Shown here one piece after another: positions 8,030 to 38,088 of a DNA stretch of 64,000 nt (positions are counted from its first letter, which is position 1; each line of letters opens with the position of its first letter). The position numbers and the translations under genes are program-made. Location of the stretch: NCBI GenBank assembly GCA_964106645.2, contig OZ067048.1; one strand, written 5' to 3'. This DNA comes from Podarcis pityusensis. Its lineage: Eukaryota. A model generated the notes under the pieces. The model was not told the origin of the DNA and ran no database searches. It saw nothing but the letters and a program-made list of their open reading frames with translations.

Positions 8030-8268
8030 TACAATTTCATTTAAAATATTACATTTTTCTAAATTTTAACAACCACATAATACTCATATATTTTCTTCTA
8101 GGCAACATTATTTCTGAAAAGTCCTGTTGTACACTCTGCTAAATATGACACTAAAAATACTAAATATGTCCAATTAGGAAAAGGGAACTGCCTCAACCAA
8201 AGCCATGTTGACCCAGCATCATTTATACCCAACTGTAGTATCAACTCCATGAATTGTTCCCAATCAGA

Positions 8269-8777
8269 AGCATTTTTGTTAGGAATGGTAGGAAATGAAA
8301 TAAACAGAAAAGACGACAAGCTTTTTCTATACACAGTAACAGCGGCAAGAATACTGCTAGCCCAAAAATGGAAACAGGAAGAATTACCGTCGATGGAAGA
8401 ATGGAGAATGAAGTTAATGGAATACGCAGAACTTGATAAACTAACAGGAAGGATCCGAGGCCTACGAGACCACAGATTCACTGAAGACTGGAGTAAATTT
8501 GTAGACTATTTGAAAAGTATTTGCGATGAACAATTAACGTTTGTAGGTTTGCAAGGGGCTCTGTGAAAATAATATCAGAAATATTGTAAAAAAGGGAACA
8601 AGAGGGAGGAGGTTTTTAATAATAGGCAATATTAGATTAAGAAACGCGGAAGAAGGACTAAAACGGAGGATTTGCAGAAGAGCTGAGGGAACTCCAAAAA
8701 ATGTATTTGTGAAAAATTGTGTTATGTGTTTTTATATTTTTGTATTGTAAAATGAATAAAAAATAATACAAAAAAAA
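8269..8777 (+). mobile_element. 5'-truncated L1 (ORF2 C-terminus, 3' UTR, poly(A))
   Basis: EAFLLG...TAARILLAQKWK...EEW...DWSKFVDYL, AATAAA plus A tail, 18-bp TSD GAATTGTTCCCAATCAGA. Confidence 0.9.
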
Positions 8778-27600: not shown

Positions 27601-27916
27601 TAGGACCCGAGAGACCGTAGAGCTCCTGCAGCTGCGTCCCCTTCCACACTTGAGCAGCGATTGGGGGGGCCACTGCTGCTGGGGAAGGCTCAGGCAGGAC
27701 CAGAGAAGCCGCAAAGCAATGAGCCTTCCTCCCTGGGCCAGATCCTGGACATGTCCTTGCCAGTGATCACTAGGAGGCCTGAAAGGAAGAGGCAGCTCCA
27801 CAGCGGAGCCACTCAGCGGCCCAGAGTCACCCCCCGGCACCAGCAAGCTGTAGCCTCGCGCACATAGGGTCTGGCAAACAGCACAGCCAGGAGTGGGCAC
27901 TGGAAAGGAGTGGTGG

Positions 27917-28643
27917 AGGGTCTCAGGAGGTGGCAGAGGGATGCTCCTAGAGTTGTTTGGCAGGGCAGGAAGCCTCGAGTTAAGCTTAAGATATTGATGG
28001 ATGCTAAAGAAGGAGGTGGACCTGCTCTGCCAGACCTTTAATCTTTGTTGTGAACCATCTGCCTTTTGCTGGTTGAGAGAATGGTTGCTTCTTGAAAACA
28101 CCGAAGTGTTGGATAATGGCAGACGAAGTTGATGGACTATAGGGAATTAGCGGAAATGACTGGCAAGATCCGAGACCAGGGTGAAGAGTCGGTGGAAGAA
28201 GATTGGAAAAAGTTTAAAGACTATTTATAGAAATATTGTAAAATTAAGGATTGTTAGAAAAATGTTGGAATGAAATTACATGGCTTTAGTAGAAATGTCA
28301 TAAGGAATTAAGTATAAATAGATTAATAGAAAATTAAAGGAAAAGTATGGCAAGAATGTGTTAAGATAATTATAGAACAGAAAACAGAGTAAGATGGAAA
28401 GGAATTGCTGAAACAAATAATAGAAGTAGAATACAAAAAGGGAGGTGTGAGGAAGTCGCTGGAAATAAGTGAATGAAATATAAGATATTGAAAATGTTTG
28501 AGGTGTTTTTAAATTGTTTTTGTTTGTTTTTGCTTGATTTGTTATTTGTATTGTTTTTTTCTTTCTTTTTTCTTTTTCTCTGTGTTTGTAGTGCTGTATT
28601 GGAAATTTTGAAAAAGTAATAAATATCATATTTTAAAAAAAAA
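27917..28643 (+). mobile_element. 5'-truncated, internally deleted L1
   Basis: WQGRKPRVKLKILMDAKEGGGPALPDL...WLREW joined at about 28115 to WQTKLMDY...EDWKKFKDYL. AATAAA plus A tail. 16-bp TSD TGGAAAGGAGTGGTGG (27901-27916 and 28644-28659). Confidence 0.85.
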
Positions 28644-31962: not shown

Positions 31963-34152
31963 TAGTGCCTTCCCCTGGCATTTGCAAATGCAATGCAAAC
32001 AACTGTGGGGGAAGGAGGAATTGCACGTGCATCTGCACTCACTCACGTGTGTCCCAGATCACATGGAAGCCTTTATGGATTCAGCTATGCAGAGACATGC
32101 AAAAGCCCCCTCTCTGCAGATGCCTGCACTGTAAAAGGGAACAACATGCAGCGGGTCTACTGGGGACTATTCACAGAGTAAAATACAGGATAAAAACATG
32201 AAAATAAGTAAAGCAAAACAGCAAAACAATAACCAACCCTTCCTACAGACACGTTTAAAAGGCTGTAGAATATTAATCAGCCAAAGGTCTGGTTGAAGAG
32301 GAATGTTTTCGCCTACCGCCTAAAGAAATCTCAACTGGGCTGACAAAGTTTCCAAATGAACGGTATGCAGATATTTTAGAAGTTGTCTGTCTTGCCTCTA
32401 TCTGGTTTTCTTAAAAGTAGCTTCTGTAGCCAGAAGTCAAAAGAAACTCACTAAGTTTCTGCCTGGGGGGAAAGCTCCAAGCTGGTTCTAAAGCCTCTAA
32501 AAGTATTTCAACAAGAACACCCATGCTGTTGTTCAACTTCAGATGCAACAAACATGCATACACAAGACCTTCATTCTCTACTGAAATGCTGCAGATTAAC
32601 CGGCTTGTGTGCAGCCAGTCTTGGGTAAAACAGCTAAGTACTCCATTAAACGTTAGTTTCTCAAAACTGCAGAGATCTTAGCAATGCAATACGATGTGTA
32701 ACTACTCAGAAGCAAGCCCCATTAAGTTCAAGAAAAAGTGTGCACAAGATTGCAGCCTAAATTACCTTTGTTTCTAATTGCACATTGCTATGCAAACATG
32801 AATGGGGGATAACATTATGTTCTGAAACACAGAGAGATACAGCTCCTGCATACTATAATGAAAAAGGAAGTTGTGCAGAAAGCGACTTTTTGTTGTTGCT
32901 CTTGATCTTACAATTTCAGTTTGACTGTTTATATGAAGAGGCTACATTAAGAAAATAATTAAGGCATTCCAACTGTCCTATCTTCAGCATCCAAATGAAA
33001 GAAATTTGTGACTTTTAACAATTTAAGGTAATGCTTTTCATTAAATGAAAAATGCACCATTTAACTTGATCGGCTTTTTGTTTTAACATATTATTTCCTT
33101 TTTTAAAGGCGTATGCTATGCAGATCAGAAGTTTAGTACGTACCCCTATAACAATGCCAAGAAGACAAACGGCCCAACAACTGCTTTACGGAGGATGCAT
33201 TTAGGAAAGCTCCCGTATTTTGGAGTTGCAGTTAATTTATTGTGAGGATTGAAAATGGAAGATTTATGTTTAGATTCTCCTAGGAGTTATTGATTACCAA
33301 AAGACAAATGGCCACTATTATAACTAACTCCACATTATTTTATTTATCCTATGAGGCACCTTTGTAAACAAAGCCTTCACTACATTGATCATTTTTCTAA
33401 CAATTGAAATCACTTCCTCTGAACAGAATAGGTCCCAAATAATAAATCTGTGAATTGTTTTCTTGTTTTGTTTTTTTACTTGAACCCAACCTTTGCAGCC
33501 TGGGCAGTTATCTGGTCTTAATGCTTTAATTTTTATTTATTTTATTTTTTGTCTGAATGATGTCACTGCACAGAACTGCTTACAATATACATATGGGTTG
33601 TATGAAGACTTTAGTCCCAGTGATAGCTAATGCTTCTGATTCCCTCATCTCCATGAAACCTTTAATGGGGACGGGGGATAAAGATCAACAAAAGTCACCC
33701 ATTCCCAGCCAGTAACATCCCTCCACTGGATGAAAAGCCTTCTATAAATGGAAGGCAAAACTTCACTCTAGCCCAACACATGACAGAGACTCATAGTGGC
33801 TTAATCCTATAACCCCAATCAATGGAAATCAGCACCCATTGTAATAGCACCCATTAGGGGAAAGTGCATCAGGTCATAGTCTCAACCGAGAGACCGTCTG
33901 CACATACACCAAGCCATCACACAGTGCTGCAGAGCTGTGCAGTTCACACATCACAGTAAAGCATACTTAATGGTAGTGAATTTGGACTCTTGCTCCTCCC
34001 CAACATCACACTGAGGAAACAAAGCACAATGCATGGCTTATCATTACTTTCAAACTCAGGGGCATGTTTTCCTCCCAACAAACCATAATGAAAAGCTGGG
34101 AGTTGATTTTGGCTCATCTACCATGTTGATCACAACCTGGGTTGATCACCCA

Positions 34153-35640
34153 GGGACGTGGGTGGCACTGTGAGTTAAACAACAGAGCCTAGGACTTGCC
34201 AATCTGAAGGTTGGCGGTTTGAATCCCCGCAATGGGGTGAGTTCCCATTGCTCGGTCCCTGCTCCTGCCAACCTGCAAGTAGATAAATATGTACTGCTCC
34301 GGCAGGAAGGTAAACGGCATTTCCGTGCGCTGCTCTGGTTTGCCAGAAGCGGCTTAGTCATGCTGGACACATGACCCGGAAGCTGTACGTCAGCTTCCCT
34401 GGCCAATAAAGCGAGATGAGCGCCGCAACCCCAGAGTCGGTCATGACTGGACCTAATGGTCAGGGCGCCTGGGGGGCCACCAGGTGGCGCATTGGAAGAT
34501 GGCCGACAATAACATCTCTCCGACCCACATGAGGTAATTAAGAGGCTGCTATGGGAAGTATGCAGTCTTCCCCCCCCCCAAGGATATGGGGGGGACTGCC
34601 TTGCCAGCGGTGGCCACAATGCACCCCCAGATTCGAGAGAAGGGGGTGCGCCGGTCACTTGGCTAAGCCCTCGGTGCGGTCGGCTCTTCCCGGACGCCGT
34701 CTCCAATTTGCGCGTGCTGGCTTGCTTTAACACGAAAATATAATTGGAAATATATAATTGGAAGATGTTAAAGCACATAAGTCAAGCAAAGGTCGGGAGA
34801 TAAGACTGCTGATTAATGGATCTCTGGGATTGGAGCGGCGGGCGAAGACAAATAAATCAAGAGACGAAGCGCCATTAAGAAATGGGTATGTTTGGAGCTA
34901 AGAAGGTGGGGTGGAGGAAAAAACTTTTCTTTATCTTATATGAGCATAAATAATAACCCTCCGCCCCAAAGAAAAAAGAACCTCTGTATTTTACTACACA
35001 AGCAGGAATCTAAAAACTGTGTGGGATGAATTAATGATGAATGAAGAGAGGATTGGTAAAGATCGGAGAATGGAAAAATTTTATGACGCAGTTTTAAAAT
35101 GGCGTCTCGCAAGACAGGCTTGTTTAAGAAAGACGGGGGGAGGAGAACCAGGACTATTTGAAAGTGAACAATGTTTGGAATTTGATCTTTAACCTGGCAG
35201 AGCCCTCTAGGAGATATTTTACAAGCCTGGGAAAACTAAAGGGCAGACCGAAGATAAATTTTCGAAGGAGGAGTGGAATGGCGGCTGTCCCTATGAAATA
35301 TGACTTGTGGAGTGCGTAAAACCCACGCAGACGATGTTTGTTCTTAACCTGCCTGTGAAGATTATCAGAGATCGCAAAGAAAGGAATATATGACAACAAC
35401 AAGAAGATGAAGAAAGTAAAAAATAGACTATCTGGATAGAACTGGATAGAACTGTTTAATTAAAGCAGTAATAGAAGTGATGTTTGGATTCTCGTCCGGA
35501 GCTTGATGTATGGGTACCCCCAACAAAATTGAAAAATTCGGCTGTATAATTTGGAATTAATGTGATTTGAAATAGTGTGATATGATTGGCCTGTTAATAA
35601 AAATTGTGTTTTTTTAAAAAAATGGTCAGGGGTCCTTTAC
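34153..35640 (+). mobile_element. Sauria SINE split near its 3' end by a 1.15-kb insertion
   Basis: SINE body 34153-34465; tail resumes at 35621-35640. Outer 19-bp TSD TACCATGTTGATCACAACC (34119-34137 and 35638-35656). Confidence 0.9.
34466..35620 (+). mobile_element. Unclassified non-coding poly(A) retroposon, probably L1-mobilised
   Basis: 11-bp TSD AATGGTCAGGG (34455-34465 and 35621-35631). AATAAA at 35596-35601 followed by a T/A tail. CpG-rich 5' end with GGAAGATGGCCGA. No plus-strand ORF of 60 aa or more in the track. Confidence 0.8.
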
Positions 35641-38088
35641 CATGTTGATCACAACCCCTTGTTCAGACAAAACGCTAAACCAGCGCTAGCGGCGAGGAAT
35701 GGAGCGGGCACAATCAGGCCATGCATAGTAAACCATTAAGTTTGGTTTACCATGATGTGCTCACACCATCACTGTTAAGTGTGGCAGGAGTAGTGACTAT
35801 GCTGTAACATCCAGGTGAGCTGTCACTTGTCAGGTCCAAGATGCTGTGATAGGTGCCATGCAACAACGTGAGGCAATGTTTCTTCTGCCACTACTGATCT
35901 GGACTGCCTGGTTACTGATACGCCATCTGTTCACAATGTCTACAAAGGAGAACGCCTGACACGCAGCTTTAGTCAAGATATTTCACACCTATCAATACCC
36001 AGCAATGATCGACTCTCAATTCTACAATTAAGTTTAATTATGCCAAATGAACAGATTGCTATAACGGAGTTTCATTTTCAGCCCAGTCTGGTTTCTTTTC
36101 CAGAACTTTGACTTTTGCAAACTGCTTCTTGTGTGAAGGAGAAAGGAAGAGGCTGAAAGGAGGTAAATGAATCCATAATGGCAGGGATTAAAAAGATGTC
36201 TGCTGACAGCAATCATGGCTTGTGTCCTTTGAATTGCCAGCCCCCTACTGCCTTTAAATGGGCAACTCCTCCTGGGATACAGCCATCCTGTGACTGACTC
36301 AAACTGGCTTTGAAACTAAAAGGATAAGTGGGACCCACAAACAAAAGGTTACTGTGTGCAGTGATCCAGTTTGGGGTTCCATACACACAGCTATGGCCTC
36401 TTGTAGGACACTCCACCCCACTCTGTTTTTCCTCACCCTGCTGCCCCCACATTCCATGACCAATAAGCATGCTCAGTTCTGCTTATTCATCTGTTTGGTG
36501 GGTGCTATAAGGAAATGTAAGGGGAGAGTAAAGTATTTTTGGTCTTTTGCAAACTTTGAGGTTTCTCCAAGTCAGCCAGTACTTCCCTCTTGGGTGGGGA
36601 TGCCCAGTCTTGCCTACACAAAGATCCACATCCAGAAAACTGAACTTTCTTTTTCTTCTTCTTCTTCTTATATTTGTACCCTCTCAACTGACTGTGTTCC
36701 CCAGTCACTCTAGGTGGCTTCCAACAAATACAAAAGCATAATAAAACAACAGTCTTAGTCTTTAGTATTGCATGAACTATCAATCCCAGATGAAGATATG
36801 ACCAAAACACACTTGAAATCCGACCCTGAACCACCTTTAAAAGATACACGCACTAGCCTTCCCAGAGCAAAGGGTTTGAAGGCTCCCAGCACAGCAGAAA
36901 ACAGTCCTTAACTGCCCTTAAAAATAACCAGTAATGGGCAAGATCATAGTAAAACATCAGGCTGCACAATGCCTGGTGGCCTGCGTCCTGTCCAGGGTAA
37001 AATCTGCACCACTAAGAACTGATCGTGTTTACTGTAGGAGTAACCAAGGTCACCTTCACACCATACATTTAATGTATGATACTGCTTTAAGCAAGAAAGA
37101 ACCATATGCTAATATACCACCCCAAATTTTGTCACTTTATTCCTGCAAATAATGGGGTTGCAAGGGAATTGTTTTCTGGAATAAATTAACATGGAAATGA
37201 GAACTAAACTCCCACTATATTTCATTAGATTTCCAGAAATGGTTTCCATGAGAAAGCTCACACATATAGCATGGAAATTAAATTAGGAGAAAGGAATAAA
37301 CCAATGTGTGGATGTATCCAGGGAGAGACTTGCAGCCAGATGTGAGACCCAAGACTTCTCACTTTAAAAGATGTCCCTTTTCCTTCTCACAGAAGAAAAT
37401 GGAACCCCCCCCTCCCCAGCCCCGTTCTGCCATTGTGGTTTTAGACTGATGCAGCGGAAAACGAAAGATATGACTCAGAGACACAAACTCTTCAAAAGCA
37501 AGCAACTACACTTTATTTTAACAGAAGTGATTTGCTGATACTTTTTTCTTAACCAAGTGTGTACAATGATATTAGTAAGATCAGAAAAGAAAAGATCAGT
37601 CAGTCAAGTATACTGAAATACAAGTTGTCAGAATCACTGTTGGCCGTTTGCTTTTACAGTGATGAAACAGTGGGATCATTCACAGGCGAAGCCTTCCAAG
37701 AGCTATCAAACTAGAGGCCTCCTGCAGATTTCTTTTAATGCAACTTTGCACATATTAATTAGCCGTATGCCATTAATATCATTTTTGTGCTTTATTATAC
37801 AGCACATTGAAATGCTGAGACCAATCCTGTCAAACTTACTGGATGCCACTATACAGACCCTATTCTGCATGGAGAATTTAGTTTAATAACGGATTCAGTT
37901 TTGACTGAAGGGATGTTCAAAATTAAAGAGACACCTTTTACACTGGAATCTCCAAACTTTTGTCTTCCACACTGGTAAAGACCAACAGCTGTAAAGAAAG
38001 ACAGATTTGCCAGTCCTCACTTGCATATACCCAGTTACAAGCTACCACAATGTATAAATGAGTTCTGTGCGTTATTTAAGGTACTCAC

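What the first reader, a model, noticed from the sequence alone, without database searches (positions are those of the whole stretch)
34466..35620. Unclassified 1.15-kb non-coding retroposon headed by CTCF- and YY1-like motifs, inserted in a SINE tail
Seen: clean 11-bp TSD, AATAAA plus tail, a CpG-rich first 260 bp, an A-rich purine-biased body and no sense ORF. It begins with CCACCAGGTGGCGC (34477-34490), a match to the CTCF core consensus, followed by AAGATGGCCG (34496-34505), the YY1-type motif found at L1 5' ends. I see no tRNA head and no recognisable ORF1/ORF2 or mRNA similarity. Inference: a non-autonomous Pol II retroposon with an L1-like internal promoter that hijacks L1 proteins, possibly an undescribed family that spreads CTCF sites. 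Here it points antisense to ST8SIA4 in intron 2.
Basis: partly seen in the sequence, partly recalled or inferred. Interest (0 to 1): 0.7.

Follow-up and report, generated by a model that had tools for sequence, protein, structure and literature searches.

The report
Gene-less lizard jumping DNA family
This is one of at least a thousand copies of a 1.1-kb lizard jumping sequence that encodes no protein; it likely switches itself on with an L1-style start signal and borrows L1 enzymes to spread, and about half of its copies carry a predicted binding site for the genome-folding protein CTCF.

Summary
Real and multi-copy. The insert has an 11-bp TSD in a SINE tail, AATAAA plus tail, and no ORF; the family's true start is the G-run at 34471. 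A relaxed head pattern finds 1001 genomic sites (control 0). 149 full-length copies form 16 clusters, 58-94% identical between the 12 larger ones, all 1.10-1.18 kb. 129 of 133 tested copies have their own TSD, some copies are 5'-truncated, and targets are purine-rich: the marks of L1-type insertion. There is no B box (0 of 133), every copy has internal T runs, and the YY1-type core is invariant, so Pol II is likely. No homology to 58 L1 loci beyond a ~20-nt head motif and the last ~25 nt; no autonomous partner behind 141 heads. The CTCF consensus is exact here, but 48 of 100 listed heads are one G short, including expanded subfamilies, so CTCF is probably not required. Promoter activity and CTCF binding are untested. 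Closest analogue: Arabidopsis Sadhu. Dfam and Repbase could not be checked.

The parts
34138..34465 (+). Host SINE (Sauria/Squam1 type; name recalled), interrupted near its 3' end
   Evidence: 6 other matches in the window at 73-84%; very deep family RNA coverage
34119..34137 (.). Left TSD of the host SINE (right copy 35638-35656)
   Evidence: 19-bp exact repeat
34455..34465 (.). Left TSD of the element, AATGGTCAGGG
34466..34470 (+). Five extra bases peculiar to this copy
   Evidence: absent from the other copies' starts
34471..35620 (+). Full-length copy of the non-coding retroposon (lineage A)
   Evidence: colinear copies genome-wide
34471..34476 (+). 5' G-run, the family's start
   Evidence: GGGGGCC invariant in 12 of 12 subfamily majorities
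34477..34490 (+). CTCF-consensus motif (predicted site)
   Evidence: 14 of 14 to CCASYAGRKGGCRS; one G shorter in 48 of 100 listed heads
34494..34505 (+). YY1-type initiator core (AAGATGGC), predicted
   Evidence: present in 127 of 133 copies; invariant across subfamilies; like the mammalian L1 start in PMC5381506
34528..34540 (+). Conserved block resembling a splice donor; no splicing seen
   Evidence: identical in the A, O and B majorities; no joint at 34533 in 4 RNA runs of another species
34731..35500 (+). A- and purine-rich non-coding body, fast-evolving
   Evidence: 8-26% invariant columns over 34781-35479 against 64% in the first 100; frameshifting indels dominate
35510..35521 (+). Conserved 3' block ATGGGTACCCCC, role unknown
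35596..35620 (+). AATAAA, T-rich linker and short A tail, built like local L1 ends
35621..35631 (.). Right TSD of the element

Best explanation
[quoted passage not shown] Shown: copy number, subfamilies, fixed start and length, individual TSDs, no ORF, conserved head and tail. Inferred: (1) the YY1-type core fixes the start at the G-run, as in mammalian L1; (2) the element's own AATAAA ends the RNA; (3) L1 ORF2p nicks purine-rich targets and reverse-transcribes it; (4) head and tail are the parts needed in cis, and the middle is largely filler. The CTCF-consensus motif probably binds CTCF or BORIS where intact and unmethylated, but is probably not needed for mobility.
For: 1001 head sites against 0 control; 76 exact 5' and 307 exact 3' motifs against 0. 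TSD of at least 9 bp in 129 of 133 copies, mode 17-19, against 3 of 130 shifted controls; 10 local L1s have 13-21-bp TSDs and the same AATAAA-linker-A-tail end. Target: A in 69-81 of 128 at positions +2 to +5, only 7 of 128 at -1. 5'-truncated copies whose 5' flank recurs after the tail: L074, L080, L089, L090 (read; extent). No B box in 0 of 133 copies; at least 3 internal T4 runs in every copy; no Rfam hit at E<=1. YY1 core in 127 of 133. PMC5381506 section 9 gives the mammalian L1 start as a G-run plus CAAGATGGC. A ~490-bp head-plus-tail variant carries its own 21-bp TSD.
Against: No transcription start was shown. RNA comes from another species at low depth, and reads run into varied upstream flanks, which fits read-through. 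No L1 partner shares the head or the body. TSD style and A tail do not exclude another LINE. The Rfam and ARAGORN blanks are weak, since both also miss the host SINE. TSD lengths allow one mismatch and may be inflated by tail As.
Confidence: 0.8

Rival explanations
1. It is an old deletion derivative (5' end plus 3' end) of an extinct or unsampled L1 or Tx1-like family. The mechanism would be the same; the origin differs.
For: The head shares GGCGC-N5/6-ATGGC with local L1 starts, and the last ~25 nt match L1 ends. The body is A-rich like L1. A true ~1.9-kb L1-derived bipartite element exists in this genome.
Against: A profile of 149 copies finds only nested element copies and low-complexity noise in 58 L1 loci; tblastx is empty. 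The 1.9-kb element is easily linked to L1 UTRs at ~70%, so the test can detect such ancestry. None of 141 heads leads into its own ORF.
Confidence: 0.25
2. It is mobilised by a non-L1 LINE (CR1, L2, RTE/Bov-B).
For: Such LINEs are abundant in the fetched flanks.
Against: AATAAA with an A tail and long variable TSDs match the local L1s; there is no microsatellite tail of the kind recalled for those clades.
Confidence: 0.06
3. The copies are retrocopies of one cellular mRNA or lncRNA.
For: Poly(A) signal, tail, and a CpG-containing 5' end.
Against: 16 clusters, each lineage with close copies (nearest neighbours mostly 93-98%), imply many source elements. The shared G-run start is inside the TSDs. 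No coding signal.
Confidence: 0.04
4. It is a Pol III SINE with an unusual head.
For: An A-box-like 11-mer overlaps the CTCF motif in 67 of 79 lineage-A copies.
Against: That 11-mer is in 0 of 28 O and 0 of 26 B copies; no B box; several T4 runs in all copies; 1.1-kb length.
Confidence: 0.04
5. It is a decayed HAL1 (ORF1-only L1).
For: Purine-rich body and L1-type ends.
Against: No ORF1 similarity (best E 4.2). Only 415 of 3511 indels between subfamily majorities are multiples of three.
Confidence: 0.04

Closest known systems
Sadhu retroposons of Arabidopsis (PMC2848041; abstract, background and first results read)
   Same: ~0.9-1.1 kb, non-coding, A tail, variable TSD, no RNA-gene head or A/B boxes, a short conserved 5' motif, divergent subfamilies, presumed LINE mobilisation.
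   Different: Plant family of 39 sequences with a CAATCGTTSC motif and a polypyrimidine patch. Here a G-run/CTCF/YY1 head and at least 1001 heads. No homology is implied.
L1 5' ends (PMC5381506; section 9 and passages)
   Same: G-run followed by a YY1 core, as in mammalian L1; GGCGC..ATGGC shared with lizard clade-1 starts; same 3' end style.
   Different: No ORFs; lacks the GACTTCCGG start of lizard clade-1 L1; no alignable UTR.
Bipartite ORF-less LINEs and HAL1 (PMC5786205; introduction and section 23)
   Same: Non-autonomous and presumed Pol II.
   Different: That paper lists ORF-less bipartite forms only for RTE, Ingi, Vingi and R2, and HAL1 keeps ORF1. No parent LINE was found here.
CTCF-carrying SINEs (B2, dog Lys, opossum MAR; PMC3368268 passages)
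   Same: A retroposon dispersing a CTCF motif to hundreds of loci.
   Different: Those are SINEs with ChIP-proven binding. Here motif only, and only about half of the heads are intact.

Membership tests
L1-mobilised non-LTR retroposon | Variable long TSDs | tested here: met
   129 of 133; control 3 of 130
L1-mobilised non-LTR retroposon | Poly(A) signal and A tail | tested here: met
L1-mobilised non-LTR retroposon | 5'-truncated copies and purine-rich target | tested here: met
L1-mobilised non-LTR retroposon | Mobilised by L1 ORF2p in trans | not testable with these tools
   needs a cell assay
Pol III SINE | tRNA, 7SL or 5S head | tested here: inconclusive
   no hit, but the host SINE is also missed
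Pol III SINE | A and B boxes | tested here: not met
   B box 0 of 133; A-box-like only in lineage A (box patterns recalled)
Pol III SINE | No internal T4 terminators | tested here: not met
   at least 3 runs in all 133
L1 / HAL1 | ORF1 and/or ORF2 | tested here: not met
Bipartite L1 derivative | 5' and 3' parts homologous to an L1 | tested here: not met
   58 L1 loci; only a ~20-nt motif and the last ~25 nt; the L1 census is incomplete
Processed pseudogene | One cellular source transcript | tested here: not met
   16 clusters with several expanding lineages
Solo LTR | TG..CA ends and a fixed 4-6-bp TSD (recalled) | tested here: not met
   G-run start, A tail, long variable TSD
Sadhu | Non-coding, A-tailed, no RNA-gene head, conserved 5' motif | tested here: met
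Sadhu | CAATCGTTSC motif with polypyrimidine patch | tested here: not met
   the heads read directly show a different motif
Sadhu | Sense transcription from the element's start | tested here: inconclusive
   low depth, other species, read-through
CTCF-spreading retroposon | Consensus motif in many copies | tested here: met
   52 of 100 listed heads have the CTCF spacing (hand count)
CTCF-spreading retroposon | CTCF binding in vivo | not testable with these tools
   needs ChIP
Named Dfam/Repbase family | Match to a deposited consensus | not testable with these tools
   no such library is on hand

The most novel reading that the evidence does not exclude
A vertebrate counterpart of Sadhu: a long-lived lineage of promoter-only Pol II parasites of L1, not derived from any LINE body. 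Its CTCF/BORIS-plus-YY1 head has seeded some 500 real CTCF anchors across lacertid genomes, and a one-base slip in a G-run has switched that site on or off in three separate branches.
Probability: 0.27. Interest if true: 0.8.

Novelty: new variant of a known kind. Interest (0 to 1): 0.57.

Why it matters
Non-coding Pol II parasites of L1 are rare in the literature I saw; Kojima 2018 lists none among ORF-less bipartite LINEs. A family with about a thousand copies, a minimal conserved head and natural CTCF-intact and CTCF-broken subfamilies is a ready-made comparison. It could test what a minimal L1-type promoter needs, and whether retroposons remodel CTCF binding in reptiles as shown for mammals. 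The copies are also candidate insertion markers across related lizard species.

Tried and rejected
Pfam L1 ORF1 searches of the genome found nothing, though L1 ORF1s are present: uninformative. Apparent head-plus-L1 fusions were nested insertions: L128/L211 is an intact L1 with its own TSD inside the element; the six C2 loci share flanks at 98-100% and are one nested insertion copied by segmental duplication. Splicing at the conserved donor-like block: no joint in 4 RNA runs. Conserved RNA fold: z-scores mostly within +/-2 in 7 copies; the only recurring dip is at +100 to +220 (-1.3 to -2.7), not pursued. No RNA holder is on record among indexed runs; this is not evidence either way. The sense bias in run X23 (68 vs 12 at the head) is also seen for the host SINE and is weak or absent in the other runs. 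Weak profile hits in L276 are low-complexity sequence. The scan's earlier notes held no look-alike. Nine literature searches on lizard non-autonomous, L1-dependent, CTCF and Sadhu terms (listings only, except papers named as read) showed no description of this family; subscription papers and repeat databases were not searched. The HAL1 paper was not held; HAL1 is taken from PMC5786205.

Full report
Observation. The insert is as described. An exact 11-bp TSD flanks it at 34455-34465 and 35621-35631, inside the tail of a SINE that has its own 19-bp duplication. AATAAA and a short tail close it. The longest sense stop-free frame is 80 aa, and 0 of 8 frames reach a Pfam cut-off. The 14-mer at 34477 fits the consensus CCASYAGRKGGCRS quoted in PMC6746451 (passage) at all positions; it is the only exact site in 64 kb, against 0.012 expected. 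Host exons place it antisense in intron 2 of an alpha-2,8-sialyltransferase gene (ST8SIA4 recalled). Two corrections: the family begins at the G-run at 34471, and CpG enrichment covers the whole element, not just the head.

It is a family. The genome search scored 40 of 2168 candidates; 34 span nearly the whole length at 84-100%. Exact motifs give 76 heads and 307 tails, controls 0. Searching with a divergent copy and with an exclusion pattern exposed further lineages, one only 61% identical to the window's lineage. A relaxed head pattern finds 1001 sites, control 0, a lower bound on copies. Of 40 further heads fetched, 30 were uninterrupted full-length copies and 10 were interrupted, deleted or partial. 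149 full-length copies fall into 16 clusters at 10% distance. The 12 with three or more members are 57.6-94% identical to each other, and all cluster majorities are 1097-1177 nt. Nearest neighbours are mostly 93-98% identical; the few at 99% or more that I could trace lie in shared flanks. So the family is fairly young but not obviously active today. Fourteen indexed runs of 8 coded organisms in 7 studies hold 0.44-0.54 of the sampled words; one may be the source sample.

How it moves (inferred). 129 of 133 copies have a TSD of 9 bp or more, mode 17-19, against 3 of 130 shifted controls; targets are A-rich just right of the nick. Ten local L1s have 13-21-bp TSDs and the same AATAAA-linker-tail end. 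Truncated copies with their own flanking repeats exist. This is the signature of L1-type target-primed reverse transcription. No assay was possible.

How it is transcribed (inferred). No copy has a B box (0 of 133), all have at least three internal T4 runs, and the A-box-like 11-mer occurs only in lineage A. Pol III is therefore unlikely. The head is the most conserved part: 64% invariant columns in the first 100, against 8-16% at 34980-35280, with GGAAGATGGC invariant. PMC5381506 (section 9) gives the mammalian L1 start as a G-run plus a YY1 site critical for initiation, and the lizard clade-1 start as GACTTCCGGTG-N8-ATGGCG. The element has the first layout and shares GGCGC..ATGGC with the second. 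PMC11602158 (passages) shows that the GCCAT core is what YY1 needs. RNA did not settle it: 136-277 reads per run from another species, no start peak at the G-run, reads extending into varied upstream flanks, and no splice at the conserved donor-like block.

No coding past or parent found. Only 37 of 453 deletions in copies and 415 of 3511 indels between subfamilies are multiples of three. Copies show no similarity to L1 ORF1 or ORF2. A profile of 149 copies run on 58 L1 loci, chosen across many identity classes, hit only nested element copies and low-complexity noise. As a positive control, a 1.9-kb L1-derived bipartite element was linked to L1 UTRs at ~70%. All 76 exact heads, 25 more and 40 were examined (141). 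None runs into its own ORF; where an L1 5' end followed a head, it was a nested insertion with its own start. The L1 census is incomplete, so an extinct or rare parent remains possible.

CTCF. Subfamily heads read CCACCAGGTGGCGC, CCACCAGGGGGCGC, CCACTAGGGGGCGC or CCGCTAGGGGGCGC; the last equals the chicken HS4 site of PMC6746451 in its first 12 of 14 bases. These substitutions stay within known CTCF words, which favours real binding. Against a required role: a form one G shorter, with four or more mismatches, marks expanded subfamilies, and long and short forms sit side by side in three branches. Exact matches are 70 of 79 in A (a sample biased by the fetching pattern), 1 of 28 in O, 0 of 26 in B and 8 of 16 in C. 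In the less biased list, 52 of the first 100 heads keep the spacing (hand count; 6 of the 48 short ones are one duplicated locus). That extrapolates to roughly 500 motif-level sites. BORIS, with similar DNA binding, is widely expressed in a lizard (PMC2515639 abstract) and is an alternative reader. Binding is untested.

Comparison and verdict. It works like Arabidopsis Sadhu (PMC2848041) but is not a member. It fails the tests for SINE, HAL1, bipartite L1 derivative, solo LTR and processed pseudogene. PMC5786205 (section 23) reports ORF-less bipartite LINEs only from RTE, Ingi, Vingi and R2. My searches found no description of this family, but Dfam, Repbase, subscription papers and supplements were not seen, and it may be deposited under an uninformative name. 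Verdict: a real, probably little-studied variant of non-autonomous retroposon; interest 0.57.

Noticed in passing
L375:1273-3200 and L192:1-1850: A ~1.9-kb element with an L1 5' UTR (~70% to local L1s), one 136-aa frame and an L1-type 3' end, with its own TSD; a second copy is 77.5% identical. Candidate bipartite non-autonomous L1 family.
   Followed up: partly
L211 (G000:C6, near 95.71-95.72 Mb): Full-length L1 with an uninterrupted 1248-aa ORF2 match inserted into the element's head, TSD 19 bp.
   Followed up: yes
L369-L374 (G000:C2, 0.3-1.4 Mb): Six segmental duplicates of a ~490-bp head-plus-tail variant with its own 21-bp TSD and a nested L1.
   Followed up: yes
G000:C19: Full-length L1 hits are strongly concentrated on this 38-Mb contig, with duplicated blocks; this pattern might fit a repeat-rich sex chromosome.
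   Followed up: no
L159:1334-5005: A LINE of another clade (434-aa ORF, endonuclease, partial RT, ~25% to L1 ORF2) nested in an element copy and cut short at its 3' end.
   Followed up: no
L008 and L037, element position ~68: Two independent copies carry short insertions at the same point next to a TA, probably a DNA-transposon MITE.
   Followed up: no
window 8258-8524 and 27913-28254: L1 ORF2 3' fragments of two different families in the host gene's introns.
   Followed up: no
window 42837 and 55605 (minus strand): Two one-mismatch CTCF-consensus sites on either side of the host gene's first exon.
   Followed up: no
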